A stretch of 64,000 nt of DNA from Saprospira sp. CCB-QB6. GTDB lineage: Bacteria > Bacteroidota > Bacteroidia > Chitinophagales > Saprospiraceae. The position numbers were made by a program, and so were the translations under genes. Within the stretch, counting starts at the first letter, position 1. Every line of letters begins with the position of its first letter. Location: NCBI RefSeq assembly GCF_028464065.1, contig NZ_CP116808.1, positions 1,199,886 through 1,263,885 of the forward strand, in the 5' to 3' direction. The notes under the pieces are model-generated. The model did no database searches. It saw only the letters and a program-made list of their open reading frames with translations, and was not told the origin of the DNA. This document shows, piece by piece, positions 9,713-56,035 of the stretch.

Positions 9713-9786
9713 AAAAAAGGAGGTCTAAAATGAGTTTTACAAAACGCTAAAATTCTTCAAAATCAGGAGGTTAGTTTAAAACTCAT

Positions 9787-10770: not shown

Positions 10771-10808
10771 AAGCTATATGGTTAAGCAGTAAGTTATCGT
10801 ATGGCCAA

Positions 10809-23285: not shown

Positions 23286-23307
23286 TGGTTATTCTAGGCC
23301 TAAAAAA

Positions 23308-23342
23308 GGCCCAAAAGTGCGGAAACTTCTGGGCCTAAGTTT
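23308..23342 (-). terminator. Terminator or attenuator after the baseplate gene
   Basis: On the minus strand, the hairpin ggcccagaag..cttttgggcc is followed by TTTTTT, immediately 3' of the stop at 23362. Confidence 0.45.
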
Positions 23343-23361: not shown

Positions 23362-26300
23362 TTAATCGTCTAGTTCACGCTCTTCGGTCATTACAAAGTC
23401 TCCATCGAGCATCATATTGTCTAATCCAGCCTTGGCAGGTGATTGGAAAGCCACCTCGTCTAATAAGTAGAGTGGGTTTTTCTCGAAAGGAATGAGGACC
23501 GACCAAGGGGTAGTTGCCTTAAGTAAGGGAGAAGAAGAATTATCGATTGCGGTATCGCCTACATCAAAGCCTTCTCCGCTAGGGAATACCTGTACGGCAG
23601 AGAATTTCGTGACAAAATCGACATATTCTCTTTTTTCGATAAAGCTGAGGAGAACGTCTTTAGCTAGTGTTCCTCCTAGTTCTAATTCTCTTTGGCCGCC
23701 ATACATCCAGGGGCAGACAAAGTCCATAATATCCTTATTCAATTTTTTGAGAAAAGTACCGTTGTTCATGCCTTTTTGGAAGCGCAGACCGCCGGCTACT
23801 TTTACTCTTTCGTAAATAGGGTTACGGAGTTTAATATCGACAAAGGGGGAAGCTAAAGGAGTAAGATAATCTCGGATAGCCTCAAGAGTAGCGTTATTTA
23901 CCATAGGTAGGCGACCTTGATGAGCAGCCTTAATTCGAGGAACGACAACAAGGACCACTTGGCCTTTATCGACAAATTCTTCATGGCCAATATGGGTAAC
24001 GCATTTCACTTGAAAAATGTCGGGAAATTGATCGAGTACTAAGCGTTCATAATCCCAAGCAGACACTGCTCTTCCTTTATGGCGGAGGCGTTCGCTACTT
24101 CGGGTATAGAACTCTTTTTTATTTTCGCCAGGTCGTCCTTCAAAAGAGCCAAAAGGCTGTTGGACAGATCGAATTTGGACCAATGGATTGACCAAATTTT
24201 TGATCTTATTAGCGGCTAGTTTTTCTTCTAAGTGTTCTACTTCGTCTTCGGGTTCTCCAGCCCAGGTTGCAGAAATAGCTTGTGTTGATAGGTGAAGGAC
24301 AGTGGGCATTCGGCTTGCATCTCCGCGGAGAGAGGCTCGCAGCCAAAACTTACCTTTTTCGAAGATCGTGTTATTCTCAGAAATATCTCTGGGGATATCG
24401 AAGGTGATAATTCCAGAATTATTAAAGAAATTGGTGGTATCGTTTAGAATTTGTGTCTGAGAGAACTCCTTCCACTCATCATTTACGAGAAAGCTCCATA
24501 CAATTTCGGCTTGTTTGGCCTCACTGCTTCGGCCCTTCATCATAGAGAAATAGTCTTGATTCTCTTTGAGCTCGAAGTAGACAGAAAGAGTTGCTGGTGG
24601 GTTGAAGTCTTTGATTCCGAGGAAGAGATAAGCATCCTCGTCATAAGCGGGCAAAAGTGTGGGCTTAATTGGGCGGCCTTGAGAGAAGTTACGCATCACG
24701 CCAAAGGGGTGAATATGGAAGAGTTCTTCTACTACACCGCCAGAGCTATTCACTGTACCGATAGACATAATATTAACTTGAGCGGTTGCTGTATAGTCAA
24801 TACTCATGTTTCTGATTACAGGAGTAAAAGGTTGATTCGGAAGCTTTTTCTTCTCTTTAGTTTTGGGGTCTGCGTTATAAGCAGCCACATCAGCATAAAG
24901 ATTTGGAAACTCATCATGGGCGAATGCAGAGGGTGGATTTGTTAATTCCATACGGAAGTAGCCAGTCTGCGTTTCGCTGGTATAAGTGTCTAGTTGTTTA
25001 AGGTCTGCTTGAGGTTCGAGATCAAAAAGCTTAAGATCGATATTATCTAGGCAAGTGGCCGAGCTAATACCGTGAACGTTATCTTCATCCTGTTCAAAGA
25101 GGAAATATTCTTTGACATTATTCTTAGCTTCAGGGAAGAACTCTCCTTCTCGCAAAGCGGATAGTTTGATTCGGTAATCCTCATTTCGAACTCCTAGGCC
25201 ATACTCACGATAGTAGCCTCGGAGGCCTTTTGTATTATCGGGTAGATTATGCCAGTTAATATTGATTTTCAGATTGGTCAGTTCCTTTTTAAAGAGCTCT
25301 GTTTTTCCGATGAGAAGATAAGAACCAAGTTTTGGTGTAGGGCCAAAAGCTTGAAAAGGGATACTGCCTTCTAGTTGGCCATATTCATTGCTGAGGTTTA
25401 GGCGTTTAATTCCTTTAACCTCTACGTCGATGTTAATTCTTTCTAGGCTTAGCTCTTTAAGGAAAGAGTAAGAGTAGGTCACATTTTCATTTTGGTGAAG
25501 GACCTTCATCACAGGAAGAGTCGTGTCGAAGTCGGGGCCTAAAACGGCAGCATCGTAGCCTACAATAGCAGGAGCATTGGCTGAAACGGTAGCGAGCAGA
25601 CTAAACTCAGGGATGTTCCAATTTTCTGGAGGGAGTAGTTCGCAGCTTTTTGCTTCAATCCATCCTTCTTCTCCAGAGAGGAGTAGTTTCAGGCTATTTT
25701 TAAAAATTTTAGAGAAGGCATCTTCTTTAGAGAGCCCTTGATTACGGCTAATATCCTTAATTAAGAGATTAAGGGTATACATAGAAGACTTGTCAAATCG
25801 CATGCGCAATTTAATGCTTCTGTGTCCTTCTTCCATTTCTAAGATAGGAGCGGCCATAGCCCAACCTACTTCGGCATAGACCATTTGGCGTTCATCGGCT
25901 GCTTTCTCGAGTAGTTCTTCTCCGAAAGCGGGCCATTCCTCTTCATTATTGATAAAGCGTTTGCCTAAGCCATCTCTAGAGTTGGCAATAGGTGCGGCAT
26001 ACATATTAGTAATTAGGCGGTAAGAGCTACCGATACCAATTTTTGGATTTTTGCTTACAAAAAGCGTCTTCACCGAATCAACTTTAGCTTGATTCAATTC
26101 GATACCATAATCAGTTTTATAGCGAATAGGCTTGCCATTTTCGTCTACTCCAGCATCGAGTAGTGTACCTGCAGGCAAGAAAAAGCTATCAATATGTTTA
26201 GCTAAATTGAAATAGACATTCACCTGATCGGGTTGTAAGCCTCTTTCTTGCATTTTAAGCACATCGTAATAGTAAAAATCGAGATGCTTTTCGGTTAGGG

Positions 26301-27132
26301 TATTTAGGTGGTCCTGATTATGTTTAAAGAGTTTAACAAAAGCGATAAATAATGCTAAATCAGGGCGGTGATCATCTTTTTCTTTAAGTGATTTCTCTAG
26401 GTATTTTGGTGCTTCTTGTACGATATAGGAAAGCACACTATAAAAGGTCCGGAATTGCAGGCGGATCTTTTTGGTATAATCTTGAATTTTAAAATTGGCT
26501 CTAGGATCTTCTACTTCAATAGCGCGAGCAGAGAGCAACTTTTTAGAGGGGAACCAAATGCTATGAAAGTTCTCTTCAATTTCGTTGGGGCTATAAATCC
26601 CTGTTTGGTGAAACTCTAGATAGCGATCTTGTTCTAAGAGTTCGAGTAGGTTAGAAGAAAGCTGTTGTTTAATTGCGTTTTCCAATTCATTTTCCAGTTC
26701 ATCGGTATCGCCTGGTTGCAAGGTATTCATTTTGAGTGCATGCTCATACCAATCATTGAACTGTTTGGCCATATCGAAGACCTGGGTATACAGAGCCTTA
26801 AGCGCTTCTAGGCGACCAGCTGTGCGGGCTGCATTTTCTAGCTCAGTAATATATTTGGCGTGTTCCTGCTCAATTTTTTTAAGGTCGGTTGCAATAATTG
26901 AGGCCAAAAATACAGAAAGGTCATTGCGCAAAAAGCGCGACCAATCTCCTGCGGGGGAGTTAGTTTGGTCATAGAACTGGACCATTTCGGCATATTTGGC
27001 AGAAAAGGCAAGGAGGTCACTAGTAGAGCGTTCATCTACCTTAATATATTCTGGGATGAGGGCTTTGAGCAATCGTTGGCTCTGCGTTACGCCATTCCAG
27101 GATAGGCTAGATTTATTCTTTTTGGTACTCAT
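23362..27132 (-). CDS. Large baseplate protein (Afp11/gp6 baseplate-J-like, possibly fused with a gp7-like part)
   Basis: 1256 aa, directly downstream of the gp25-like and PAAR genes. Size and position match eCIS baseplate wedge proteins. No motif confirmed by eye. Confidence 0.7.
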   Translation of the reverse strand: MSTKKNKSSLSWNGVTQSQRLLKALIPEYIKVDERSTSDLLAFSAKYAEMVQFYDQTNSPAGDWSRFLRNDLSVFLASIIATDLKKIEQEHAKYITELENAARTAGRLEALKALYTQVFDMAKQFNDWYEHALKMNTLQPGDTDELENELENAIKQQLSSNLLELLEQDRYLEFHQTGIYSPNEIEENFHSIWFPSKKLLSARAIEVEDPRANFKIQDYTKKIRLQFRTFYSVLSYIVQEAPKYLEKSLKEKDDHRPDLALFIAFVKLFKHNQDHLNTLTEKHLDFYYYDVLKMQERGLQPDQVNVYFNLAKHIDSFFLPAGTLLDAGVDENGKPIRYKTDYGIELNQAKVDSVKTLFVSKNPKIGIGSSYRLITNMYAAPIANSRDGLGKRFINNEEEWPAFGEELLEKAADERQMVYAEVGWAMAAPILEMEEGHRSIKLRMRFDKSSMYTLNLLIKDISRNQGLSKEDAFSKIFKNSLKLLLSGEEGWIEAKSCELLPPENWNIPEFSLLATVSANAPAIVGYDAAVLGPDFDTTLPVMKVLHQNENVTYSYSFLKELSLERINIDVEVKGIKRLNLSNEYGQLEGSIPFQAFGPTPKLGSYLLIGKTELFKKELTNLKININWHNLPDNTKGLRGYYREYGLGVRNEDYRIKLSALREGEFFPEAKNNVKEYFLFEQDEDNVHGISSATCLDNIDLKLFDLEPQADLKQLDTYTSETQTGYFRMELTNPPSAFAHDEFPNLYADVAAYNADPKTKEKKKLPNQPFTPVIRNMSIDYTATAQVNIMSIGTVNSSGGVVEELFHIHPFGVMRNFSQGRPIKPTLLPAYDEDAYLFLGIKDFNPPATLSVYFELKENQDYFSMMKGRSSEAKQAEIVWSFLVNDEWKEFSQTQILNDTTNFFNNSGIITFDIPRDISENNTIFEKGKFWLRASLRGDASRMPTVLHLSTQAISATWAGEPEDEVEHLEEKLAANKIKNLVNPLVQIRSVQQPFGSFEGRPGENKKEFYTRSSERLRHKGRAVSAWDYERLVLDQFPDIFQVKCVTHIGHEEFVDKGQVVLVVVPRIKAAHQGRLPMVNNATLEAIRDYLTPLASPFVDIKLRNPIYERVKVAGGLRFQKGMNNGTFLKKLNKDIMDFVCPWMYGGQRELELGGTLAKDVLLSFIEKREYVDFVTKFSAVQVFPSGEGFDVGDTAIDNSSSPLLKATTPWSVLIPFEKNPLYLLDEVAFQSPAKAGLDNMMLDGDFVMTEERELDD

Positions 27133-27196
27133 GCTAAGGTGCGCTTAAGAGGATGGTTATTGTTGTTCTGATAGTGATAGTTGGGGCTATAGTGAT

Positions 27197-27613
27197 TTAG
27201 AGCTCGGTACCTTCTGCAAGGTAGAAAGGATAGACCATGTTATTACGAGCATTCACCCCCTTAATTTCATAAACTACATTTACATTTACACGGCCACGGA
27301 GTTGTTCGCTTTCATCTACATCGACAGAGATGAGGCGAATACGGGGCTCATGATACAGGATGGCTGTAGTAATGAGATCTTGAATCCGAATTCGGGTAGC
27401 ATTGTTAATGCTTTGAAAAGCTTGGCTATGGATATCGCAACCATAGCTAGGGTTCATGATTCGTTCGCCGGGGAGTGTAGATAATAAGATATTAAGAGAC
27501 TCCTTAATATCTTCTTCGTCTTGAGACATAACAATTCCGCGGGTAGAGTCGCTAAAACGTGGAGGGAAGCTCCAGCCTGAGCCTAAAAATGATTTTTGGA
27601 TATCGTCTGACAT
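27197..27613 (-). CDS. gp25-like baseplate wedge protein (GPW/gp25 family, Afp9-like)
   Basis: 138 aa with LSTLPGERIMNPSYGCDIH, matching the GPW_gp25 core motif. Confidence 0.85.
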   Translation of the reverse strand: MSDDIQKSFLGSGWSFPPRFSDSTRGIVMSQDEEDIKESLNILLSTLPGERIMNPSYGCDIHSQAFQSINNATRIRIQDLITTAILYHEPRIRLISVDVDESEQLRGRVNVNVVYEIKGVNARNNMVYPFYLAEGTEL

Positions 27614-27679
27614 GCTTAGAAATTTCTTATCGTCTAAAAAATTGGGATCAACTATTTATTTTAGGAGCAAAGCAGGCGC

Positions 27680-27808
27680 TGAATTGGCCTAGCGCTGTGG
27701 AAGGGTGGCCCTCAGGCCAGACCGAGGCGGCAAAGCCGCGGCCGAAGGGCCGAGCAGTCCTGCGAGCCCTGAAACCTAGCGCCGCAGCAAAGCTGCGGAG
27801 GCCCCTAA
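27680..27808 (-). repeat. GC-rich interspersed element, variant B reverse, inside the cluster
   Basis: cctagcgctgtgg..gccagaccgaggcggcaaagccgc..cctgcgagccc..gcagctttgctgcggaggcccc. Confidence 0.85.
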
Positions 27809-27812
27809 ACTA

Positions 27813-28103
27813 CTAACCAATAAGCACCGTAGGGGCTCCAGCTACCACTGCTCCGCCATGGCCACAAGAATCACCAATACGGGCAGCGGGTTTACCTTCA
27901 ATCATGACTGTTCCTGAGCCAGAAGCAATAGAGTCGCCAGCGCAGGCACAGACGGCAGAATCGCCAAGGCGGGCCGCGGGGATTCCAGTCACCATAACAG
28001 TTCCGGCACCGCTAACAATAGGTCCTCCAACATGAGGAGCTGGACCGGGGCAAACGGCGGGGCAAACGTGCATATCGCCAATTCGGGCAGAGGGCATTCC
28101 CAT
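27813..28103 (-). CDS. PAAR-domain spike tip protein
   Basis: 96 aa, Gly/Ala-rich, with two PAAR motifs (GIPAARLGD, GKPAARIGD). Confidence 0.85.
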   Translation of the reverse strand: MGMPSARIGDMHVCPAVCPGPAPHVGGPIVSGAGTVMVTGIPAARLGDSAVCACAGDSIASGSGTVMIEGKPAARIGDSCGHGGAVVAGAPTVLIG

Positions 28104-28124
28104 AGTATATTGATTTTAAACGTA

Positions 28125-29969
28125 CTAGTTAATTTTCACTAAACCACCTTTCACTTCACATAGTCCGCCGCCTTCTAGCTTAGCAGAGGCAGAACCTTTG
28201 AGTTCCATAGTGGTTGAGCCTTCTCCTTTTACAGCCAAGGCCTTAATAGAGAAATTGGCTGTGGCTTCCATTTTTGTATCGGAACCTGATTTGGTCTCGA
28301 TGTTAATGTCTGCCTCCATTTTAATATTTTTCTTGGCTTTAACGACAAAGTCTCCATCCGTTTCGAAGAGAATTCCATTTTTGTCCATCAACATTTTGTT
28401 GACATTCACGGGGTCTTCGATCAAGATCGTATCTTCATCGTCATTAAGCTCCACGATCATTTTATCCTCTGTAATAATCTTGACGATATTTTTGCCAGGA
28501 TCATCTTGAAGTTCGATACGTGTTTTTCCTTTATTGATAGAGATAGCTTTAAAGATATTGGGATCGGCAGGAATATGCGTTTCCTCGGTGGTAATACCTC
28601 TTCCGCTACTATACATAGAGCCCAAAATGACGGGATAAGTGGGATCAGCATTAAAAAAGCCAACAACCACTTCATCGCCTACTTCGGGATAAAATACAAA
28701 TCCGCAATCTTCGGTGGCATAATAATGCGCCATACGCGCCCAAACGCCTTCACCAGCTTGATCATCAATAATTGGGATATTGATTAAAACGCGAAACTCA
28801 CCATCTGGATCTGAGTCAATTTGCTTAACTACACCATGTTGTAGGCCATGAATAGCCGGTAAAGTTCCTCCTGCTGGGCGAGAGCTGGCCGTAAGGTTGG
28901 CCTCCATATAAGGTTGAGGATCCATACCTAAGCCCACCTCTGTTAACCATTGTCCTTTAAGGATAGTGTGGCGAACTTTGCTTACATAAGCATCGCCGAC
29001 AAAGCGGGTTCCAAAACCAAAAAGCTCAATTGTTTTACCCAATTCTGCTTTGGCCGAACCATAAAACTTCAGACTACCTCGAATTCGAGAGAGATGTCCT
29101 CTTTGATAAACGGAGTCTGCCCAAGACTGGATCACATCTTTAGTTACAGGAGGAGTGGTTTTGACCGTATTTTTGGGTTCAATAACGGCCCCCAACTTAG
29201 CAGAGTCCAAGTCTCCCTGTGCATTAACCTTTGGTTTAGCGCCATCAGCTGTTACAATAGCCAAATCTGTATGACTCCAACTGGTTGCACCAACCTCTTT
29301 ATATTGATAGGTTGAGTCAATATTCATATCCATCTCTACCAAGTCATTTCCATAAGAAATAACGAGTTCAGACTTCTCACTAACCGTAGGTTTCTTAATA
29401 CTAATTTCACCATCATCAATGATAGTCACCAAGCTATTCACATCAGCCCGAGAGTGTATAAAATCCCAATCAGTGCTCCAATATTGAATTAACTTCTTGT
29501 GCTTTCCTTTCGTTGCTTCCACATCCGCAGAAAGTCCAGCCTCACTCACAACTGCCGAAATAATATCCGAATCAAGCTGATCATAAAAAACCTTGTTTTT
29601 CCGGCCAACAGTTAGTTTAAGCGCTTTATCCTTACACTTGAGCACTAGAGCTGCTCCACTATAATTAGACTGCTTAATACCATGCTCTACTAAGATACCT
29701 TTATAAAGGGTTTGCTCTTTACCAGGACCATAACCTGCTTTTACCTCCACTTCTTTTCCCGGCTCAAACATGGCATCCTCAGAGGTCGGAAACTTCTGTT
29801 CCCGAGTATCTCCGTCCTTAAGCGTAATAAGAGCATAAGGAATCTTATTCAATTCCTTTACAATATCTACGCTCTCCACGACCATTGTTTTAGGCACCTC
29901 GGTTCCATCTATCAGTACAAGTACCGACAGATAGCCTTCGCCCATGCCTTTTACTGGAGAATCTGCCAT
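28125..29969 (-). CDS. VgrG / phage late-control-D-like spike protein (gp27-gp5-like, Afp8-like)
   Basis: 614 aa, with beta-rich repeats at the C-terminus and the expected position between the tube genes and PAAR. Confidence 0.75.
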   Translation of the reverse strand: MADSPVKGMGEGYLSVLVLIDGTEVPKTMVVESVDIVKELNKIPYALITLKDGDTREQKFPTSEDAMFEPGKEVEVKAGYGPGKEQTLYKGILVEHGIKQSNYSGAALVLKCKDKALKLTVGRKNKVFYDQLDSDIISAVVSEAGLSADVEATKGKHKKLIQYWSTDWDFIHSRADVNSLVTIIDDGEISIKKPTVSEKSELVISYGNDLVEMDMNIDSTYQYKEVGATSWSHTDLAIVTADGAKPKVNAQGDLDSAKLGAVIEPKNTVKTTPPVTKDVIQSWADSVYQRGHLSRIRGSLKFYGSAKAELGKTIELFGFGTRFVGDAYVSKVRHTILKGQWLTEVGLGMDPQPYMEANLTASSRPAGGTLPAIHGLQHGVVKQIDSDPDGEFRVLINIPIIDDQAGEGVWARMAHYYATEDCGFVFYPEVGDEVVVGFFNADPTYPVILGSMYSSGRGITTEETHIPADPNIFKAISINKGKTRIELQDDPGKNIVKIITEDKMIVELNDDEDTILIEDPVNVNKMLMDKNGILFETDGDFVVKAKKNIKMEADINIETKSGSDTKMEATANFSIKALAVKGEGSTTMELKGSASAKLEGGGLCEVKGGLVKIN

Positions 29970-30005
29970 TTTTCTTTATTTATCTTCTAGTTAATTGAGT
30001 CAATT

Positions 30006-30194
30006 CTATCGATTCATTTTGTACTCCCAAGCTTCCATTGCCCGTCGTACTGCTTCCTGAATCAAAATTTCTTTATCTTTTTCGGTCATTCCCTTTCCCT
30101 GATCCTTCCCATCTTTTTTCCCTTGACCTTTGCCTCCACCATTTTCTGCATTCACATTGGTGTTGACATTCATCTCTTTTACTGTTACTGCCAT
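30006..30194 (-). CDS. Small Lys/Gly-rich protein (62 aa), Afp6-like position
   Basis: Co-oriented small ORF between the Afp5-like tube and the spike genes. Confidence 0.45.
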   Translation of the reverse strand: MAVTVKEMNVNTNVNAENGGGKGQGKKDGKDQGKGMTEKDKEILIQEAVRRAMEAWEYKMNR

Positions 30195-30228
30195 AAGGTT
30201 AGTGTTTTATCTTTGAGCAGATTATTTA

Positions 30229-30346
30229 GGGGCCTGCGGGCTACGCCCGCCGCTATGTTTCAGGGCTCGCAAGCCTGCTCGGCCCTTCAGCCGCCTTTGG
30301 CGGCTTCGGTCTGGCCCTGCGGGCCACCCTTCCACAGCGCTAGGCC
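30229..30346 (+). repeat. GC-rich interspersed element, variant B, inside the cluster
   Basis: GGGGCCTGCGGG...GGGCTCGCAAG...CACAGCGCTAGGCC. Confidence 0.85.
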
Positions 30347-30360
30347 ATAAACGGCTTCGC

Positions 30361-31050
30361 TTAATGTGCTACTACCTTAGAGAATGCATAAGAAAGTTCA
30401 ATCTCCTGAACCAACAAATCCTCTGAAGTAGAATTCAATGAGCTCAAACTCATTTTAGACGGATACGCAAAATTAAATTCCATAGAAATCAAAATCTGCG
30501 GCTTTCCCGATTGTGTAAGGTTAGGATGCATAACATTAACCTGAACTCCCTTCAACTTAAGCTGCTTATTCCAAGAAGCCATAGCATCAAAACTCTCCTC
30601 ACACCACTGTGTCCAAGGGTCAGAACTTTTAATCACATCTGGCCGAACTAGACGCTTAAGCGTAATTGCAGAGTTTTTCATCTTATCAGGTAAGTCAATA
30701 GGATAATTGTATCCCCCCTCATTATAAGTCTTCTTCCCCTCTAGTCCAATCTCTAATCCACTCACCTCTATAAATGAGTTGTGAATATTGGTGTCGCCTG
30801 GCGTAGGCAAGCCATTCGCACCACCACCATCAAGTTTGTTAATCCCCTGTTTAAGCAATCCTCCGGCCATGCCCCCAACAAAAGTATCGACAGCTCCTTT
30901 GGCTACTCCTGCCAAAAAGCTATTTCCCTCATGCTTTTGATCATACATCTGCACATCAAAGTAAAAAGCGGGAATGGGCGAGGTTGTTTTCTCGTCCTCT
31001 TTCATTACTTCATCTAAAAAGCGCTCAAATGGGCTAATGGTATTATTCAT
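30361..31050 (-). CDS. Tube-family protein with insertion (Afp5/Pvc5-like)
   Basis: PAFYFDVQM...FIEVSGLEIGLE echoes the tube-protein core of the two neighbouring tube genes. Confidence 0.65.
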   Translation of the reverse strand: MNNTISPFERFLDEVMKEDEKTTSPIPAFYFDVQMYDQKHEGNSFLAGVAKGAVDTFVGGMAGGLLKQGINKLDGGGANGLPTPGDTNIHNSFIEVSGLEIGLEGKKTYNEGGYNYPIDLPDKMKNSAITLKRLVRPDVIKSSDPWTQWCEESFDAMASWNKQLKLKGVQVNVMHPNLTQSGKPQILISMEFNFAYPSKMSLSSLNSTSEDLLVQEIELSYAFSKVVAH

Positions 31051-31110
31051 ATCTTATTGGGATTATCTATAGCTATTGGTCTAAAAGTTAATTTGCTAAG
31101 CAGTTTCAAT

Positions 31111-31569
31111 TTAACCGCCTACCTGCGTTTCAAAATGACGGAAGGCAAATTCCATCTCCTCTACCGCTACTTCATTTTCAGATTCAGCATCAAAATTAGA
31201 GGGAATGTACTTTGTAATAAAAGCCTTTTCAAGCCGCCAAATAAACTGCGTCTCCATATTGTGATCCAAGAGATGAATTTCAATTGTCCGACGAGAAGTA
31301 TACTCCCGACTCACCGCTACCTGATCAAACAAACGACTCATTTGATCATCCTGAGAGAAAGAGCCTTTCTTAAGTGTAATCCGACTATATTGCAACATGC
31401 CAGGCATGCGCTCCTTTCCAAAAAAGGGAGAATTACCATCTCGGTACTCAATCACCCCAATCTCCGCTTCCAAACCATCTACAGTCTGAAAAGACATTTC
31501 AATTGGACCAATAAACACCCGAAAGCTAAAGCGCGTTAGGGGCCATGTCATTGTGGAATCTGAACTCAT
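31111..31569 (-). CDS. Phage-tail tube protein (T4 gp19 / Hcp-like fold), copy 2
   Basis: WPLTRFSFRV...FQTVDGLEAEIGVIEYRDGN, paralogous to the 31818-32273 product. Confidence 0.85.
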   Translation of the reverse strand: MSSDSTMTWPLTRFSFRVFIGPIEMSFQTVDGLEAEIGVIEYRDGNSPFFGKERMPGMLQYSRITLKKGSFSQDDQMSRLFDQVAVSREYTSRRTIEIHLLDHNMETQFIWRLEKAFITKYIPSNFDAESENEVAVEEMEFAFRHFETQVGG

Positions 31570-31757
31570 AACATCTATTTTTAAGAAAGCAGCTGCCCAA
31601 GTTAACTAGCTAAATACTAGCGTCAAGGCATGGATTTTTTGGGCCTATGCCCTGAAAATAGCGCTTAGCGATATCACCTTTAATAATCAGGCAGTTAAGA
31701 CTCGCTATAAGTTAAGCGCTTTAGGCTACTAAATTAAAGAAAAAATCTTAATAGCAC

Positions 31758-31792
31758 AAAAAAAACCTAGCAGGTTTTTACCTGCCAGGTTT
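31758..31792 (-). terminator. Hairpin plus T-run (attenuator) after the major tube gene
   Basis: On the minus strand, the hairpin cctggcagg..cctgctagg is followed by T8, directly 3' of the stop at 31818. Confidence 0.45.
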
Positions 31793-31817
31793 AATTTATT
31801 GCTAAGCTAAATTAAGC

Positions 31818-32273
31818 TTATGCAGTTTCCATAGTCCACTCTTCGCAGCAGAACTCAAGTTCTTCGATAGCGACTTCAGAGTCAGCTTCTGCGTCAAAAG
31901 GAGTAGGAGTAAACTTAGTAACGAAAGCGTTGAGAAGAGTCCAAGTGAAAACGATCTCATCAGCTTCATTCATCAAGTGAATGATTACAGTACGACGCTC
32001 AGTGTGCTGGTGGTCAACTGAAAGCTCTTTGTACCACTGATATAGGTAGTCATCGCTCTGGAAAGTACCCTTCTTCAAGGTGATGTTGCTATAAGACATC
32101 AAACCAGGACGCTTAGTCTTGTAGAAGTTGGTAGAGTTACCTGCGCGGTACTCCATTACAGAAATCTCAGTCTCAAGACCTTCGATTGTCTGGAAGCCCA
32201 AAGTGTTGGGGATATTGTCAATCTCGATAGAGAAGTAAAACTTAGGCAGTGGCCATTCTGTTGTTGCAGACAT
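31818..32273 (-). CDS. Phage-tail tube protein (T4 gp19-like, Afp1/Pvc1-like), major copy
   Basis: WPLPKFYFSIEI...FQTIEGLETEISVMEYRAGN. Codon usage is strongly biased, consistent with high expression. Confidence 0.9.
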   Translation of the reverse strand: MSATTEWPLPKFYFSIEIDNIPNTLGFQTIEGLETEISVMEYRAGNSTNFYKTKRPGLMSYSNITLKKGTFQSDDYLYQWYKELSVDHQHTERRTVIIHLMNEADEIVFTWTLLNAFVTKFTPTPFDAEADSEVAIEELEFCCEEWTMETA

Positions 32274-32385
32274 GATATATGGCGTTTAAAAGTATGATCT
32301 AAATTTAAATTGTTGATGCTCTCTTGTTTAAGCCCAAGAGAAAGGCTCAATGCTTTAGATGTCATCTCTAAGTTAAGCGCAAAGC

Positions 32386-33879
32386 TTACTCAGCACCACC
32401 GGGCATTTTTTGCTGGAAGGTGATAACGATGAATTCAGCAGGACGAGAGATAGCTACTTTCACAGAAACTTTCATGTAACCATCTAGGATATCCTGAGGA
32501 GTCATAGTTGTACCCAAACCAACTTCTACTTGGAAAGCTTGGTCTTCAGTAGCACCTACCAAAGCACCTGCTTGCCACTGGCTACGCAAGAATGAACCAA
32601 TCATTGATTTAACTGCGATCCAAGTGTTAGCGTCATTGGGACGGAATACGAAAGGCTCACAAGCGAACTTCACAGACTGCTCCAACATGATCATAGTACG
32701 ACGTACGTTGATGTAGCGCCAGTCTTGGCTGTTACCGTCTAGAGTACGAGCACCCCATACCAAAGTACCTTTTCCAACGAAAGGACGGATAGCGTTGATT
32801 GCTTTACCACTCAAAGGCAAGTTCAAGTCTTCTTGCTCAGTAGCAGAAATGTTAACAGTAGGTCCAGTTACAGAAGAAACTGATACGTTAGCAGGAGCTT
32901 TGAATACACCTACAGTGCTGTCTACCAAAGAGTAAAGACCAGCGATAGCACCAGAAGGAGGCAATACGTTCAACATATCGCGCATTTGACCCAATACATC
33001 GTTGTATACAGGGCTTACAGCCTTCATGATGTTGTGTACAGCAGTTACGTTAGCATCAGCGTCAGCCATCTTAGCGATCTCAGCTTTGATCAACTCACCT
33101 TTTTCAGCTTTAACGAAACCAGCAGCTACGTTGTCATCAACTTCTTTGTTAAGCAATTCAACGAAACCTTCTAGGTTAGCAACGTTAGTGTAGTCAAACT
33201 CATCAGCTTGAACAACAGTAGCTTTCAACCAAGGGTAGTAAGCAGCACCAAAGTCTAGGAAGTTGTTGCCATAAGCCTCACGAGCGCGAGTTACAACATC
33301 ATCATCTAGCATGCTGCGAGATTCGTTACCGTTCCATACATCTAGGATAGCGAAGCGGCTGCGAGTATCAGCACCACAGTGCTTCAACATAGCTTGCTGT
33401 ACAGTAGCACAGTCACCTTCTTCCAAAGAGATAGCATCGGGAACTACAACCAAAGTAGGCTCTTGCTCCTTCAACAAAGCAGTGATACCACCGCCGTTCT
33501 CAGTACCAACTAGTGTTTTGGGAGAAACGTCATCGCCGTATCCACCAACAGAAACGATGTAGCAAGTTCCACCACCGTTAGCGTAGAACATTTGAAGGCT
33601 ACGGAACAACATGTAGTTACCGCCATCAACAGAAACGGTGTAGTTGTCACCTTCAGCATCAACGTTGAAAGTAGTTTTGGGAGCACCACCGAAGTAAGAT
33701 AGGTACTCAACCAAAGAAGTAATGCGCATTGGCGTGTTAGTCAAGTCGCGCTTACCAGCAGCGGCTTTCTCAGTGTGGCCAATGAAAGCAGGGATAGCAG
33801 TTCCTACTGCTACAACAGAATTCGAGAAGGCGCTTTTTTCTTCGATATAAACGCCTGGTGTTGCATACTGTTTTGCCAT
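32386..33879 (-). CDS. Contractile tail sheath protein
   Basis: N-terminus MAKQYATPGVYIEEKS is the phage/eCIS sheath signature. 497 aa with strongly biased codon usage (gct/ggt/gtt/aac/gaa). Confidence 0.9.
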   Translation of the reverse strand: MAKQYATPGVYIEEKSAFSNSVVAVGTAIPAFIGHTEKAAAGKRDLTNTPMRITSLVEYLSYFGGAPKTTFNVDAEGDNYTVSVDGGNYMLFRSLQMFYANGGGTCYIVSVGGYGDDVSPKTLVGTENGGGITALLKEQEPTLVVVPDAISLEEGDCATVQQAMLKHCGADTRSRFAILDVWNGNESRSMLDDDVVTRAREAYGNNFLDFGAAYYPWLKATVVQADEFDYTNVANLEGFVELLNKEVDDNVAAGFVKAEKGELIKAEIAKMADADANVTAVHNIMKAVSPVYNDVLGQMRDMLNVLPPSGAIAGLYSLVDSTVGVFKAPANVSVSSVTGPTVNISATEQEDLNLPLSGKAINAIRPFVGKGTLVWGARTLDGNSQDWRYINVRRTMIMLEQSVKFACEPFVFRPNDANTWIAVKSMIGSFLRSQWQAGALVGATEDQAFQVEVGLGTTMTPQDILDGYMKVSVKVAISRPAEFIVITFQQKMPGGAE

Positions 33880-33935
33880 GATTTAATTTATTTTGAAAAG
33901 TTTAATTGATTTACAAATTTATTTCTATCAACTGA

Positions 33936-35063
33936 TTACAAATATACAATTATTTCGGAAAACACAGCATCCTCAACGTTAAAATCTGTTTTTAATATTG
34001 ATTTTGCTGAATGATTAGGTAAATCTGTAATCCATTCAATTCCATTTTTGCCTCTTTTGGTCCTGAGTTTAAAGCGACTAAGTTGTTTCTCCTTAAAGGG
34101 AACAGGCTCTGAAGTTTTGACCAATATAGCCATTTCGCCAGAAGGCATTTCCACCTCTTCCGCTTCTTCAAAGTCTACTGTTTCGCCAGCTCGACCATTA
34201 TCGTAAGCTTCATGTCCTTTGTGCTGCTTATCCTCTGACATTTCCACTATATAGTAGTGCCAAGGCAGTGAACGAGCGGGAAAATGAATATTATAATCTC
34301 TTTTGGGCAACAACTTCCCTTCTGCATCAAAAAAGCGGTAAGGGCTGTCATCCTCCTTGTCAATATAAATATCCACTACGCCCCAAATACCTGCGGTTCC
34401 TTCTGGAGCCATATAAAAAGTATATTCTTCCAAACCATCTAGCTGCAAAATATACTTTCCGGCAGGTGCATCAGGCATGACCACATCTACATGTGCATTT
34501 TCGCCCTCCTGTTCCAAAAAGAAATAAGATTGACCCAATTCATCAACGACCTCAATTTCCGCATCTTCCTCTTCATCATCAAATTCGTAGCGAAAAACGG
34601 GGCCTTCAATTGGTAAGCGATCCATTTCAGAAACTAACTCATCATTAGAGAGATTGCCAGCTTCATCTTCAATCTTATCTTCAGCCCGGTTAGTGAAGTG
34701 ATAAAGATAGTCACCAAACTCATAAGGAAGACCTGTATAGTTAAGGAAGAAAGCATCTTCTACCTTCATCCAAAAACTAAGCTTTAGGGGCTTTTCCAAA
34801 CTTTCTAAAGCAGGGCCTCCTGAAACTGTTTCCCCATAACCAATCAGCAAATTATTGCCTTCAAAGGCAGTTTTAAGCTGAGTTTGTTTTAGGCGAAAAA
34901 CCGTGTCGGAAGTAGGGCTAAGAACTACATCTTGACAGATCTGCTCATCAAAGTAATCGTGCAATATAGCTATGTTCAATAGCTGATTATAGCGAGTTTG
35001 GATGTTCAGCAGCATATGATGCTCCATCGGATTCCGTCGCCTGCTAATTTTACGTCTCTTCAT
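33936..35063 (-). CDS. Acidic hypothetical protein (375 aa) between the cap and sheath genes
   Basis: Long co-oriented ORF. The N-terminus may start later (MEHHMLL). No recognisable domain. Confidence 0.6.
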   Translation of the reverse strand: MKRRKISRRRNPMEHHMLLNIQTRYNQLLNIAILHDYFDEQICQDVVLSPTSDTVFRLKQTQLKTAFEGNNLLIGYGETVSGGPALESLEKPLKLSFWMKVEDAFFLNYTGLPYEFGDYLYHFTNRAEDKIEDEAGNLSNDELVSEMDRLPIEGPVFRYEFDDEEEDAEIEVVDELGQSYFFLEQEGENAHVDVVMPDAPAGKYILQLDGLEEYTFYMAPEGTAGIWGVVDIYIDKEDDSPYRFFDAEGKLLPKRDYNIHFPARSLPWHYYIVEMSEDKQHKGHEAYDNGRAGETVDFEEAEEVEMPSGEMAILVKTSEPVPFKEKQLSRFKLRTKRGKNGIEWITDLPNHSAKSILKTDFNVEDAVFSEIIVYL

Positions 35064-35251
35064 TAAGCTCTTCTGCTTTAAGTCCCTTAAAATTAGAGAA
35101 TTTAATTTTGGTCTGCAAAGTTTATATGCAGTTTTTTTTCATTTTTTTTAACAAAAGCTAAAATTTAGCTGAAGTTAAGTCTAGAAGCCCGATGAGCAGG
35201 GCTTTTCGCCTCATTAGTTAACTGTCTGAGGCTTTAGCGCTAGCTCATTTT

Positions 35252-35370
35252 GGCCTAGCGATGTGTAGGGGTGGCCGAAGGCCAGACCGAAGCGCGCAGC
35301 GCTGAAGGGCCGAGCGAACAGCGAGCCCCGAAACGTAGCGCCGACGAGCGTAGCGAGACGGAGGCCCCAA
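35252..35370 (-). repeat. GC-rich interspersed element, variant B reverse, inside the cluster
   Basis: ggcctagcgatgtg..gccagaccgaagcg..gggccgagcgaacagcgagcccc..ggaggcccc. Confidence 0.85.
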
Positions 35371-35376
35371 ATTCTT

Positions 35377-35937
35377 CTAAATCTTGCGAATAGATGGAAT
35401 TTCTAGCTCTGGTTTCTTATGCTCAATCGGAATCGTTTTGAAACGATAAAGGACCGAAGGCAAATACTTGGCCCCTACCCCATTCCAAACATTAGATACA
35501 TCCCTAAAATCAGGAGAAACCATTTCGGCCACCAAACGCGTAAGGCTACCCGAAAGCGCTGGCGTATTTTGCTCATTAAAGACGCCTTGGCGACTCTGGA
35601 AAAAAGCAATCACCGAGCTCACAAACTTAAGGCCCTCCAAATAATTTTCATTGGTAAAATAGGCCGAAAACAACATATATATATTGACTTCAACCGGCGG
35701 AATAACCTTAGTAAAATTCCCTCGCTTGTTGGGCTGATAGGTAGCCGTCGTGCTCTTATTTCGCTCTGCCTCAATATTGATGATCGTCATCACGATCTTA
35801 TCGGCCTCTTGCACCGCCATCGATCCATCGGCATTTACTAGATGCGAAATGATGACCTTATCCTCTAAAATATTGTGTTTAGACTGCAAAAAGCGATTGA
35901 GCTCGCCCACCACAGCCGTGACAACTTTATCAATCAT
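35377..35937 (-). CDS. Tail terminator / cap protein, DUF4255-like (Afp16-like)
   Basis: 186 aa. It is the first gene upstream of the sheath module, as in many eCIS loci. The assignment rests on size and position only. Confidence 0.55.
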   Translation of the reverse strand: MIDKVVTAVVGELNRFLQSKHNILEDKVIISHLVNADGSMAVQEADKIVMTIINIEAERNKSTTATYQPNKRGNFTKVIPPVEVNIYMLFSAYFTNENYLEGLKFVSSVIAFFQSRQGVFNEQNTPALSGSLTRLVAEMVSPDFRDVSNVWNGVGAKYLPSVLYRFKTIPIEHKKPELEIPSIRKI

Positions 35938-35942
35938 AATCC

Positions 35943-36200
35943 TTATTCTTCTTCCTCCTCAGGCTCTGGCTGAGTCAGTGTTTTGATAGAAAGCGCAATA
36001 AAACGCATAATATAAATGCCCAAAAAAGAGGTAAAATACCCTATCAAGTACATCCAGAATACCCAGTTGCGCTCAATTTCACTCATATTTACCACCTCTC
36101 TGGTATAACCAAAGAACCAAAGGAACACCACCGCCATGGGCAGCGAGACGATCAGGGCCACAATCAGCCAAATGAACTCTCTTGCGATTATTTTAAACAT
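35943..36200 (-). CDS. Small membrane protein (2 TM helices, poly-Glu C-terminus)
   Basis: 85 aa ending 6 bp before the cap gene, with hydrophobic segments LIVALIVSLPMAVVFLWFF and MYLIGYFTSFLGIYIM. Confidence 0.5.
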   Translation of the reverse strand: MFKIIAREFIWLIVALIVSLPMAVVFLWFFGYTREVVNMSEIERNWVFWMYLIGYFTSFLGIYIMRFIALSIKTLTQPEPEEEEE

Positions 36201-36252
36201 GCTCTATTTTTGTTAGCCTCGATATCGCACAAGGTTGTTTTTGATTTTTATG

Positions 36253-36405
36253 TTTTGGGGCTGCCCCTCCTTTCAGTCGGGTCGGGCTGTGCCGTGGCTC
36301 GCTAATCGCTCGGCCCTGCGCCAGCAAGCTGGCTGGGTCTGCGGCTTCGCCGCACCACTTTCCATCCCTCAGCCTGCGGCGGCTTTGCCGCCTGCTCACC
36401 GCAAA
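36253..36405 (+). repeat. GC-rich interspersed element, variant A
   Basis: TTTTGGGGCTGCCCC..GGGTCGGGCTGTG..CTCGCT..CGGCCC. ORF 36193-36507 is an artefact. Confidence 0.85.
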
Positions 36406-36410
36406 AGGAC

Positions 36411-38588: not shown

Positions 38589-38630
38589 AAGTCTTGGGAA
38601 TAAAATCGTCTGAATAAGAAATTGGGAGAA

Positions 38631-40517: not shown

Positions 40518-40554
40518 TTCTTTCTGCTTTTCAAATTCTCAATGGGGTGTCTGA

Positions 40555-41595
40555 CTAGCCTTCTTCGGCCTTGAATACTGGAATCTTCTTTTGCAAAAAG
40601 ATCTCTTGGACTCGCTCCCGCTTGATAATCTCCAAGATTTCGGCTCGCTTGAGTTGAAATTTGGCCACCTTAATATAAACCCGCACTCCTGTCACCGTAT
40701 TGAGGTTCCTAAAACACATTTTCAACTGCTTGTAGGTACCCGCCTTATAAGCAGGGATTACCCCAAATGGAGGAGGATTCAAGCCCTGCGTCCCCACATA
40801 ATTATCATTGGCCCTAGGATCCTTAAAATCATAGCGAAGGTTTCGAGCCAAAGAATTATTTGCCATCGGCAAAGTTTCTGTCAAACCTAAACCATACGCC
40901 ATAAGCGGTTCCGTCACCTCTGCCGCAATCCAACTAAGCTTAGGGTTGCTCTTGAGATTTTGATACTCTTGATGGGCCTTATCCCCAATGCCAATCCAAT
41001 AGACAGCATATTGATAATCCCCCTCCAATAAAGCTTCCGTAATGCAACTATCGGCCAAAGACTGATAGTCTAGGGCCGGCTGTAGATCCAACTGAATTTC
41101 TGTAATATCTGGATAGGGAATCGTATCGGGATAAGCCGTGCGCATGGTATCTATTGAGGTCGTTACCATCACATCATCCAATACCAAAGAGTCTTGAAAA
41201 GACATGGCCGGAAACTTATAAATCTGCATACGAAAAGCACGACCAAACAACCCCCGATTTTTCATCACAAAATTATGCACTCCATCCTTAGACGCAATAA
41301 ATGACTCCCGCTCTAAACTACGCACCTTCTTCATGCGCATCTTAAACTGAGTGCCTGGCAATTCCACAATGAGACGGCCCAATTTACGGGCGCCAATGGT
41401 TTGCATATCAATAACAACCTGCTCGCCTTGCTTGAGGTCATAGGAAAGTAGCTTCTTTTTCCAAGCGCCTAATTCTACCAACTCATCAAAGAGAACAATG
41501 CGTTCATCATAAGATTGTTGGGCCTGCATGGGGCTATACAGTAGGCATAACAATAGGGCAAACCACTGCCAATGCAGCTTTTTGGGTATTCTCAT
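40555..41595 (-). CDS. Secreted hypothetical protein
   Basis: Start trimmed to MRIPKKLHWQWFALLLCLLYSPMQAQQ (signal peptide). First gene of the co-oriented block. Confidence 0.65.
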   Translation of the reverse strand: MRIPKKLHWQWFALLLCLLYSPMQAQQSYDERIVLFDELVELGAWKKKLLSYDLKQGEQVVIDMQTIGARKLGRLIVELPGTQFKMRMKKVRSLERESFIASKDGVHNFVMKNRGLFGRAFRMQIYKFPAMSFQDSLVLDDVMVTTSIDTMRTAYPDTIPYPDITEIQLDLQPALDYQSLADSCITEALLEGDYQYAVYWIGIGDKAHQEYQNLKSNPKLSWIAAEVTEPLMAYGLGLTETLPMANNSLARNLRYDFKDPRANDNYVGTQGLNPPPFGVIPAYKAGTYKQLKMCFRNLNTVTGVRVYIKVAKFQLKRAEILEIIKRERVQEIFLQKKIPVFKAEEG

Positions 41596-41790
41596 ATATC
41601 CGTAGCATCTAAGGTTCTGGGGCAAAATTGGCAATTAAAAGTATAGTGTGTGGGCCAAAATCTGCTAGTACAAGCCCAAATTAAAGCTTTTTTCAAAATT
41701 AACCTTAAAATTCTAGGGCCTTTTCTAAACAAAACCTTAAAGGTCCATCAATCGTCTAGCTGTCAAAGTTTTAACAGAGATTAGTTTTTT

Positions 41791-55765: not shown

Positions 55766-55936
55766 AAAAAAACAGAAAAAGGCCGAAAAAACGGCAGCCT
55801 AGCCTCCTTTTTTTGCCCTAGTCCAAAGAAACTCCATTTTTTTTATGTCTTTTTTTGCAAAAAGTTTGGCAAAACCAAAAAGGGCTCCTATATTTGCATA
55901 CGCAAAGAGGGAACAGCCCTCTAAATGCAAATATAC

Positions 55937-56010: not shown

Positions 56011-56035
56011 CTACTCATACACAACAATATATTTT

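What the first reader, a model, noticed from the sequence alone, without database searches (positions are those of the whole stretch)
31758..33879. Sheath and major tube genes carry strong high-expression codon bias and are followed by an attenuator hairpin
In 32386-33879 and 31818-32273, codons such as GCT, GGT, GTT, CGT, AAC and GAA dominate, unlike the flanking cluster genes including the second tube copy. A hairpin plus T8 (31758-31792, minus strand) follows the major tube stop. This fits a design in which sheath and tube are made in large excess over baseplate and spike components, as for abundantly produced tail-like particles.
Basis: seen in the sequence. Interest (0 to 1): 0.5.

Follow-up and report, generated by a model that had tools for sequence, protein, structure and literature searches.

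The report
Sheath–tube high-expression cassette with terminator
In the contractile injection ("rhapidosome" / type VI-like) gene cluster of Saprospira grandis, the sheath and inner-tube genes, whose products are needed in hundreds of copies, form a codon-optimised mini-operon that ends in a strong, conserved transcription terminator; this is an ordinary way of matching gene output to assembly stoichiometry, documented cleanly here.

Summary
The sheath gene (32386-33879, minus strand) and the first tube gene (31818-32273) are the two most codon-biased of 45 ORFs in the window. The bias points the same way as in the HU gene, the only classic high-expression gene present. The flanking cluster genes, including the 47%-identical second tube paralog, show none of it. 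Synonymous divergence from S. grandis DSM 2844 is 5-10 times lower in these two genes than in their neighbours. The hairpin plus T8 (31792-31758) is a canonical intrinsic terminator (-20.1 kcal/mol). A hairpin sits at the same place in the 22 Saprospira/Aureispira relatives, and 11 of its 12 stem pairs show compensatory changes. The "high-output sheath and tube" reading is therefore supported. The word "attenuator" is not established. The hairpin is at least as strong as the cluster-end terminator. Its T-tract ends in a TTTG that lies 20 nt upstream of a conserved near-consensus Bacteroidetes -7 box, which suggests a weak restart promoter for the baseplate and spike genes. A conserved TATATTTG -7 box lies upstream of the sheath gene, so the cassette looks promoter-to-terminator bounded. 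This is a new, well-supported example of a known design, of modest interest. A codon adaptation index against ribosomal-protein genes could not be computed here.

The parts
33939..33946 (-). TATATTTG, candidate -7 box of a dedicated sheath promoter. It is embedded in the last codons (V-Y-L-stop) of the upstream 375-aa gene.
   Evidence: The same octamer is the -7 box upstream of the tRNA-Gln and tRNA-Asn genes in this window. A TAnnTTTG lies 62-145 nt upstream of the sheath ATG in all 22 clade loci listed: TATATTTG in 21 and TACCTTTG in L017. It is free-standing in L010, L011, L018, L019 and L022, where the coding copy is lost. Background frequency is 0.05 per kb-strand. No canonical -33 TTTG lies at 19-21 nt.
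33914..33921 (-). TAAATTTG, second candidate -7 box, 34 nt upstream of the sheath ATG. The TTTG of the first box lies 17 nt upstream of it.
   Evidence: Present in both S. grandis strains. In freshwater Saprospira loci it is degenerate (TAAATTTC), so it is less conserved.
32386..33879 (-). Sheath gene (Cis2 / Afp2-4 type), 497 aa, strongly codon-biased.
   Evidence: Pfam Phage_sheath_1C, E = 6e-14. Closest solved structure is the SalCIS sheath 9R9H, E = 6.5e-155. Nc 32.3. dS 0.158 against DSM 2844.
32274..32385 (-). Sheath-tube1 spacer (112 nt). It has no terminator and contains one copy of the 12-mer GCGCTTAACTTA (32380-32369).
   Evidence: No significant fold (z -0.77). Only weak hairpins occur here across the clade. 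12-mer.
31818..32273 (-). Tube1, the major inner-tube gene (Cis1 / Hcp-like), 151 aa, strongly codon-biased.
   Evidence: Pfam Phage_T4_gp19, E = 3.5e-34. Best solved match is the SalCIS tube 9r9h_B, E = 2e-30. Nc 35.7. dS 0.091. In nearly all 80 loci it is the ORF most like the sheath in codon usage.
31758..31792 (-). Intrinsic terminator: 13-bp stem, 4-nt loop, T8.
   Evidence: The hairpin is identical in DSM 2844. Hairpins lie at the same position in 18 related loci; 99% of cells pair and 11 of 12 pairs show compensatory changes.
31729..31760 (-). Candidate weak restart promoter: -33 TTTG (the end of the terminator T-tract plus G), 20-nt spacer, -7-like TAATTTAG.
   Evidence: It is one of 11 window matches to TTTG-N19-21-TAnnTT[T/A]G, against 2.5 expected; the others include the HU, tRNA-Gln, tRNA-Asn and SbtA upstream regions. 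The same TTTG-N20-TAnnTTAG follows the terminator in L007, L009, L010, L011, L012, L014, L018 and L019.
31570..31728 (-). Remainder of the 248-nt tube1-tube2 gap, the putative 5' leader of the downstream genes. It contains the second copy of GCGCTTAACTTA (31719-31708) and two AGCGCT palindromes.
   Evidence: 88.6% identical between strains, against 71% at third codon positions of tube2. Moderately structured (z -2.05). No exact TAnnTTTG.
31111..31569 (-). Tube2, a Cis1 paralog of 152 aa, 47% identical to tube1, with background codon usage.
   Evidence: dS 0.69.
23362..31050 (-). Low-bias downstream genes: tube-like 229 aa (Cis5-like), DUF5908, VgrG-like spike, PAAR, gp25, and a 1256-aa baseplate protein.
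   Evidence: Pfam. The 229-aa protein matches the baseplate chain 9rce_I. Nc 40-54.
23307..23336 (-). Cluster-end intrinsic terminator (12-bp stem, T6).
   Evidence: -18.9 kcal/mol.

Best explanation
The window comes from Saprospira grandis. The cluster is its contractile injection system, the rhapidosome / T6SS subtype iv type. Within the cluster, sheath and tube1 form an insulated high-output cassette.

Inferred: a conserved TATATTTG -7 box at the very end of the upstream gene starts or boosts transcription.

Shown: both ORFs carry the genome's high-expression codon set. Selection on their synonymous sites has kept dS 5-10 times below that of neighbouring genes.

Shown as a conserved structure, termination itself inferred: a strong intrinsic terminator 25 nt after the tube1 stop ends most transcripts.

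Inferred: the genes needed in 1-12 copies per particle (tube paralogs, spike, PAAR, gp25, baseplate) receive only terminator read-through, initiation at a weak promoter whose -33 TTTG overlaps the terminator T-tract, or both. The outcome is a large excess of the two polymerising subunits. These are 6 per layer over many layers, by established CIS architecture.

The codon bias is a consequence and a marker of high expression. It is not the switch itself.
For: Identity: sheath 99% identical to S. grandis DSM 2844. Pfam finds sheath, three gp19-type tube genes, VgrG, PAAR, gp25 and Pvc16_N. Solved homologues are SalCIS, AlgoCIS and tCIS.

Bias. With the sheath as CAI reference, HU (0.61) and tube1 (0.59) rank first, against a median of 0.30. 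With HU as reference, the sheath ranks first at 0.69. AAC, at 93% in the sheath, is the Watson-Crick codon of the tRNA-Asn(GUU) genes in the window.

Selection: dS is 0.158 for the sheath and 0.091 for tube1. It is 0.49-2.6 for Pvc16N, PAAR, tube2, VgrG, tube3 and g40555. Third-position identity is 90% and 95%, against 60-77% in neighbours, with sharp changes at gene borders.

Conservation: in 20 of 20 clade loci the sheath has the lowest Nc of all long ORFs, and tube1 exceeds the next tube gene in C3.

Terminator: a hairpin plus T-run of -13 kcal/mol or stronger lies within 100 nt of the stop for 82% of tube1 genes. The figure is 14% for sheath, 3% for other tube paralogs and 11% for other ORFs. 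Covariation was counted.

Promoters.

Literature: the Saprospira sheath protein SCFP forms cytoplasmic fibrils (PMC3486910). Rhapidosomes are likely T6SSiv structures, and S. grandis Cis2 clusters with that of Aureispira.
Against: No expression data were available, so promoter use, termination efficiency and protein ratios are all inferred.

The high-expression reference is a single 107-aa gene (HU). Ribosomal-protein genes of this genome could not be reached.

The sheath -7 box has no canonical -33 TTTG at 19-21 nt. In most loci it overlaps a conserved protein C-terminus (SE-I/L-x-VYL), so part of its conservation is coding constraint.

The restart -7 box deviates from the consensus (TTAG instead of TTTG).

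The hairpins used for covariation were picked because they fold, which inflates the percentage paired.

Low dS could partly reflect recombination between strains.
Confidence: 0.7

Rival explanations
1. Pure attenuator. The whole cluster is one transcript. The hairpin stops a fixed fraction of polymerases, and the downstream genes are expressed only by read-through, possibly modulated by an antiterminator.
For: There is no exact TAnnTTTG between the hairpin and tube2 in the window or in most clade loci. All genes are co-oriented. The downstream genes are essential parts of the same machine. From my own knowledge: RfaH-like antitermination (AnfA1) controls the Serratia Afp cluster, and NusG-like UpxY proteins act in Bacteroides.
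Against: The hairpin with T8 is as strong as or stronger than the cluster-end terminator. No competing antiterminator fold was found. The gap after the hairpin is always long in the clade (134-891 nt), far more than an attenuator needs. It is more conserved between strains than synonymous sites. A canonical-spacing TTTG-N20-TAnnTTAG element follows the hairpin in S. grandis and in 8 Aureispira-type loci. No NusG/RfaH-type domain appeared among the 45 ORFs scanned.
Confidence: 0.3
2. The hairpin acts mainly as a 3' stabiliser or processing barrier. Long transcripts are made, 3'-to-5' exonucleases stop at the hairpin, and a long-lived sheath-tube1 mRNA accumulates while distal segments decay. 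This is how the puf and pap operons work.
For: The stem is stable and conserved. This reading is compatible with all the sequence evidence. A 12-mer is repeated after the sheath stop and again in the gap and could be a processing signal.
Against: The uninterrupted T8 right after the stem, kept as a T-run in nearly all relatives, is the hallmark of termination. A mere exonuclease block does not need it.
Confidence: 0.12
3. The codon bias does not reflect expression. It comes from foreign origin, local base composition, or recent recombination between strains.
For: The bias covers a contiguous 2-kb block, and that block is unusually similar between the two S. grandis strains.
Against: GC and GC3 of the block match the neighbours. 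The bias points the same way as in HU. It is reproduced independently in 20 of 20 relatives whose sequences are saturated at synonymous sites. It stops exactly at ORF borders. The sheath's first ~24 codons are exempt, as in a typical 5' ramp.
Confidence: 0.03

Closest known systems
Aureispira sp. CCB-QB1 T6SS subtype iv, and the Saprospira 'rhapidosomes' (Lien et al., bioRxiv 10.1101/2024.01.29.577165; Science 2024)
   Same: The cluster is homologous. Aureispira-type loci share 74-79% sheath identity and the order upstream gene, sheath, tube, gap, tube paralogs, spike. They also share the codon bias and the post-tube hairpin. The paper states that S. grandis Cis2 groups with Aureispira Cis2 and that rhapidosomes are likely T6SSiv structures.
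   Different: The paper as held contains no 'operon', 'transcriptom' or 'RNA-seq', so it does not cover this layer. The regulation it describes is IS insertion and excision. Membrane anchoring and function of the S. grandis system were not examined here.
SalCIS of Salmonella enterica subsp. salamae (PDB 9R9H, 9RCE; PMC13266070), with AlgoCIS and the cyanobacterial tCIS, eCIS clade Ib
   Same: These are the closest solved sheath (E = 6.5e-155) and tube (E = 2e-30) structures. A minor tube-like baseplate chain matches the 229-aa gene.
   Different: They come from different phyla, and the regulatory architecture was not compared. The 375-aa gene upstream of the sheath has no solved sequence relative.
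Operon-internal terminators that set subunit ratios: the E. coli rplKAJL-rpoBC attenuator, the cyanobacterial cpcBA hairpin ahead of the linker genes, and phage T7 T-phi after major capsid gene 10 (my own knowledge, not checked here)
   Same: Abundant structural subunits come first. A stable hairpin follows, and low-copy partners lie downstream in the same orientation.
   Different: In those cases partial read-through has been measured. Here it is unknown, and a restart promoter overlapping the T-tract is an added candidate feature.
Bacteroidetes primary-sigma promoter, -33 TTTG / -7 TAnnTTTG (Bayley et al. 2000; Chen et al. 2007; my own knowledge)
   Same: The window's tRNA-Gln, tRNA-Asn and HU genes have TTTG-N19/20-TA(T/A)ATTTG. 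The sheath has the same -7 octamer as the tRNA genes.
   Different: The sheath box lacks a canonical -33. The post-terminator element has a canonical -33 and spacing but an imperfect -7 (TAATTTAG).

Membership tests
Contractile injection system, eCIS clade Ib / T6SS subtype iv type | Sheath, inner tube, VgrG-like spike, PAAR, gp25-like wedge and a cap (Pvc16-type) gene in one co-oriented cluster | tested here: met
   Pfam hits; solved homologues.
Contractile injection system, eCIS clade Ib / T6SS subtype iv type | Sheath groups with Aureispira, Amoebophilus and AlgoCIS sheaths | tested here: met
   74-79% identity to Aureispira-type loci. Best solved matches are SalCIS, then AlgoCIS, then tCIS. 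The literature gives the same grouping. No tree was built here.
Contractile injection system, eCIS clade Ib / T6SS subtype iv type | Intracellular, membrane-anchored firing (T6SS mode) rather than release as free particles | not testable with these tools
   This needs imaging or genetics.
Intrinsic (Rho-independent) terminator | Stable G+C-containing stem-loop followed directly by a U-tract, downstream of a stop codon | tested here: met
   13-bp stem, -20.1 kcal/mol, T8, 25 nt after the stop.
Intrinsic (Rho-independent) terminator | The structure, not the sequence, is conserved at the same position in relatives | tested here: met
   Of 19 sequences, 99.1% of cells pair, against 77.6% in shuffles and 26-45% when partners are slid. 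11 of 12 pairs have compensatory changes. The sequences were chosen as hairpins, which favours pairing.
Intrinsic (Rho-independent) terminator | Transcripts end there in vivo or in vitro | not testable with these tools
   No transcript data are available.
Regulated transcription attenuator (leader type) | Mutually exclusive terminator and antiterminator folds, or a leader peptide, ligand or protein sensor | tested here: not met
   The minimum-energy and centroid folds show only the terminator and a small separate hairpin over the stop codon. No Rfam family matched. The element lies at a 3' end, not in a leader.
Translationally selected (high-expression) codon usage | Low effective codon number and enrichment of the same codons as known highly expressed genes of the genome | tested here: inconclusive
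   Met against HU, the only reference in the window.
Translationally selected (high-expression) codon usage | Reduced synonymous substitution rate relative to neighbouring genes | tested here: met
   dS 0.09-0.16, against 0.49-2.6 in neighbours.
Translationally selected (high-expression) codon usage | C-ending preference in two-fold pyrimidine families, matching GNN anticodons | tested here: met
   C3 is 0.75, against a window range of 0.10-0.56. AAC is at 93%, and tRNA-Asn(GUU) is present.
Bacteroidetes -33/-7 promoter (upstream of sheath) | -7 TAnnTTTG | tested here: met
   TATATTTG at 33946-33939 and TAAATTTG at 33921-33914. A TAnnTTTG is present upstream of the sheath across the clade.
Bacteroidetes -33/-7 promoter (upstream of sheath) | -33 TTTG at a spacing of 19-21 nt | tested here: not met
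   None for TATATTTG. The spacing is only 17 nt for TAAATTTG.
Bacteroidetes -33/-7 promoter (after the terminator) | -33 TTTG, 19-21 nt spacer, -7 TAnnTTTG | tested here: inconclusive
   TTTG-N20-TAATTTAG has one mismatch in the -7 box. The arrangement is conserved in 8 Aureispira-type loci.

The most novel reading that the evidence does not exclude
The terminator and the element that follows form one conserved composite 'stop-and-restart' module. The U-tract that releases the abundant sheath-tube mRNA also supplies the -33 TTTG of a deliberately weakened promoter (TAnnTTAG) for the baseplate and spike genes. This would hard-wire the sheath-to-baseplate ratio across ixotrophic Saprospiraceae. 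The repeated GCGCTTAACTTA motif may add a shared post-transcriptional control.
Probability: 0.3. Interest if true: 0.4.

Novelty: new member of a known kind. Interest (0 to 1): 0.27.

Why it matters
The analysis gives a concrete, testable map of how a T6SS-iv / rhapidosome cluster could produce hundreds of sheath and tube subunits per baseplate. The map has a dedicated promoter box, codon-optimised ORFs, a conserved terminator and a candidate restart promoter.

It helps anyone who wants to express or engineer these Bacteroidota injection systems. It also marks sheath and tube1 as probably among the most highly expressed genes of S. grandis, which fits the classic abundance of rhapidosomes.

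The principle is textbook, so the value lies in annotation and experimental design. It is not a conceptual surprise.

Tried and rejected
- **Ribosomal-protein reference for a true CAI.** The exact sheath protein is not on record in the contig collection. HU is found only on short metagenome contigs without ribosomal genes. tblastn with E. coli EF-Tu, S12, GroEL and DnaK found nothing in the window or the 80 loci.
- **The partial Porin_10 gene next to HU as a second high-expression control.** It is not biased (T3 0.25, C3 0.18), so it is uninformative.
- **Sigma-70-type promoter scan.** It is at chance level (37 found, 35.9 expected) and is not appropriate for Bacteroidota.
- **Rfam search of 22-42.5 kb.** Only two sub-threshold eukaryotic families overlapped the hairpin.
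- **Structured RNA in the spacers.** The sheath-tube1 spacer is not significant (z -0.77). The tube1-tube2 gap is marginal (z -2.05).
- **Identity of the 375-aa gene upstream of the sheath.** There is no Pfam hit and no solved-structure sequence match.
- **Literature on codon usage or internal terminators in CIS clusters.** Nothing relevant was found in the held library.
- **Hairpin as a dispersed repeat.** Rejected, because it is unique in the window.
Full report
**What the region is.** The window has about 44% G+C. It carries a co-oriented minus-strand cluster, read here 5' to 3':
- a Pvc16_N cap gene (35377-35937);
- an unannotated 375-aa gene (33936-35063);
- a phage-type sheath gene (32386-33879);
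- three gp19/Hcp-type tube genes: 31818-32273, 31111-31569 and 30361-31050;
- DUF5908, a VgrG-like spike, PAAR, gp25, and a 1256-aa baseplate protein that ends at 23362.

A scan of one genome per species found the sheath 99% identical to Saprospira grandis DSM 2844. It also returned 79 further related loci. The nearest 21 are Saprospira, Aureispira and Saprospiraceae MAGs with 74-85% sheath identity.

The closest solved structures are the SalCIS sheath and tube (9R9H; E = 6.5e-155 and 2e-30), followed by AlgoCIS and the cyanobacterial tCIS. According to the literature held, the Saprospira sheath protein (SCFP) forms cytoplasmic fibrils (PMC3486910). The classic rhapidosomes are likely T6SS subtype iv structures, and S. 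grandis Cis2 groups with Aureispira Cis2 (bioRxiv 10.1101/2024.01.29.577165).

**The codon bias is real and large.**
- Of 45 ORFs, the sheath (Nc 32.3) and tube1 (Nc 35.7) have the lowest effective codon numbers.
- They also have the highest share of T-ending four-fold codons (0.72 and 0.68) and of C-ending two-fold pyrimidine codons (0.75 for both).
- The rest of the window spans Nc 38.7-61, T3 0.14-0.64 and C3 0.10-0.56.
- Tube2 is 47% identical to tube1 in protein yet sits at 44.3, 0.34 and 0.15.
- Heterogeneity against the rest of the window is chi2 = 410 (p = 2e-62) for the sheath and 114 (p = 9e-9) for tube1.
GAA is not (52% vs 60-62%). ACT, ATC, TTC, TAC and TTG should be added to the list.

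**The bias is a high-expression signature.** No ribosomal-protein gene could be reached, so four indirect tests were used.
1. The third most biased ORF is HU (1336-1659), a canonical abundant protein. With the sheath alone as CAI reference, HU (0.61) and tube1 (0.59) rank first against a median of 0.30. With HU alone as reference, the sheath ranks first at 0.69.
2. The pattern is the standard one for translational selection. For example, AAC is the cognate codon of the tRNA-Asn(GUU) genes in the window.
3. Against DSM 2844, dS is 0.158 for the sheath and 0.091 for tube1. It is 0.49-2.6 for six neighbouring cluster genes. Third-position identity is 90% and 95%, against 60-77%, and it changes sharply at ORF borders.
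4. In 20 of 20 clade loci with background genes, the sheath has the lowest Nc of all long ORFs. In all 20 clade loci that have a second tube gene, tube1 exceeds that next tube gene in C3. Across all 80 loci, the ORF most like the sheath in codon usage is almost always tube1.

In more distant Bacteroidota loci the effect persists but is weaker, with a median Nc difference of -3.5 against -11.8 in the clade. Base composition does not explain the bias.

**The hairpin is a conserved intrinsic terminator.**
- It is a 13-bp stem with a 4-nt loop and T8, at -20.1 kcal/mol (z -5.6). It begins 25 nt after the tube1 stop codon.
- It ranks first among terminator-like sites in 22-42 kb. The second-ranked site (23336-23307, -18.9 kcal/mol, T6) closes the cluster.
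- It is unique in the window and identical in DSM 2844.
- In the 22 clade loci, a hairpin plus T-run of -13 kcal/mol or stronger lies within 100 nt of the stop for 82% of tube1 genes. The figures are 14% for sheath genes, 3% for other tube paralogs and 11% for other ORFs.
- L012 and L014 carry the hairpin about 180 nt downstream, outside that 100-nt window. In the two loci with no strong site (L008, L016), a matching hairpin followed by an interrupted T-run can be read in the spacer printed.
- The hairpin sequences fall into several unrelated families. Aligned, 99.1% of cells pair, against 77.6% in shuffles and 26-45% when partners are slid. 11 of 12 pairs show compensatory changes. One caveat applies: these sequences were selected as hairpins.
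- No comparable site lies between sheath and tube1, so the two genes are most simply co-transcribed.

**Promoters.** The sigma-70 scan is at chance level, so the Bacteroidetes motif was used instead.
- TTTG-N19-21-TAnnTT[T/A]G occurs 11 times in the window against 2.5 expected. The hits include the regions upstream of tRNA-Gln, tRNA-Asn, HU and SbtA.
- The tRNA genes use TATATTTG as their -7 box.
- The same octamer lies 60 nt upstream of the sheath ATG, inside the last codons of the 375-aa gene. A TAnnTTTG is found 62-145 nt upstream of the sheath in all 22 clade loci listed: TATATTTG in 21 and TACCTTTG in L017.
- Where the coding copy is lost (L010, L011, L018, L019, L022) a free-standing TATATTTG appears. 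L017 instead has a full TTTG-N19-TACCTTTG.
- This argues for constraint at the DNA level, although the sheath box has no canonical -33.

**Attenuator or terminator plus restart?** Nothing in the sequence marks the hairpin as leaky, and no antiterminator fold is seen.
- Its T8 plus the following G forms a TTTG. Exactly 20 nt downstream lies TAATTTAG, which is one mismatch from the -7 consensus.
- The same TTTG-N20-TAnnTTAG follows the terminator in eight Aureispira-type loci even though their spacers differ.
- The gap after the hairpin is always long in the clade (134-891 nt).
- That gap is more conserved between strains (88.6%) than synonymous sites in tube2 (71%).

A weak restart promoter is therefore at least as likely as pure read-through. 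Both would yield the same stoichiometric outcome. Only transcript mapping can separate them.

**Verdict.** The reading of sheath and tube made in excess is supported by several independent lines of indirect evidence. The label "attenuator" is not established. The design is a new, well-documented instance of a familiar principle.

Noticed in passing
window 33805-33876 (sheath codons 2-25, minus strand): The first ~24 codons of the sheath gene escape the bias. Only 7 of 19 informative codons are preferred, against 312 of 385 in the rest (Fisher p = 5e-5). This looks like a 5' codon 'ramp' or a low-structure start region. Tube1 shows a weaker version.
   Followed up: partly
window 32369-32380 and 31708-31719 (minus strand): The exact 12-mer GCGCTTAACTTA occurs only twice in 64 kb. 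One copy lies 6 nt after the sheath stop. The other lies in the tube1-tube2 gap, just downstream of the candidate restart promoter. Similar GCTTAA-type motifs can be read in the same spacers of freshwater Saprospira loci. Its function is unknown.
   Followed up: partly
L002:12206-14653, L005:12267-14561, L006:9730-11334, L009:12320-13339, L015:12631-14025: In related Saprospira and Aureispira MAGs the second tube paralog is a 339-815 aa protein. Its gp19/Hcp domain sits at one end, and the other end is a long extension with no Pfam match. This recalls 'evolved Hcp' cargo fusions. In the window tube2 is only 152 aa.
   Followed up: partly
window 2098-2334 (minus strand), 55865-56110 (plus strand), 1810-1840 (minus strand): Tandem duplicate tRNA-Gln(UUG) and tRNA-Asn(GUU) genes, and the HU gene, each lie downstream of a textbook TTTG-N19/20-TA(T/A)ATTTG element. 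These give a local promoter consensus for this genome.
   Followed up: yes
L010, L011, L018, L019 (about 95 nt upstream of the sheath ATG): The free-standing TATATTTG is flanked by sequence that still resembles the 3' coding end of the upstream gene in other loci (...ATTATTCCnAAtTATTnG TATATTTG TAA). It looks as if a relic of the gene end had been kept as a promoter.
   Followed up: partly
window 23362-41634 compared with L001: The two S. grandis strains are very divergent at synonymous sites in most cluster genes. dS is 0.5-2.6, and nucleotide identity is 82-91% in the genes other than sheath, tube1 and the 85-aa ORF 35943-36200 (95%). Proteins stay 94-100% identical where measured. The window therefore comes from a strain clearly distinct from DSM 2844.
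   Followed up: no
window 36411-40517 and 42525-45200 (minus strand): Two large GH18 (chitinase-like) proteins lie just upstream of the cap gene in the same orientation. Beyond them is an 891-aa SprB-repeat protein with a T9SS C-terminal sorting domain. They are possible effectors or surface partners of the injection system.
   Followed up: no
window 8693-11792 and 17006-20365 (minus strand): There are three tandem DUF6976 paralogs. A 1119-aa nSTAND1 NTPase with WD40 repeats lies a few kb beyond the cluster end.
   Followed up: no
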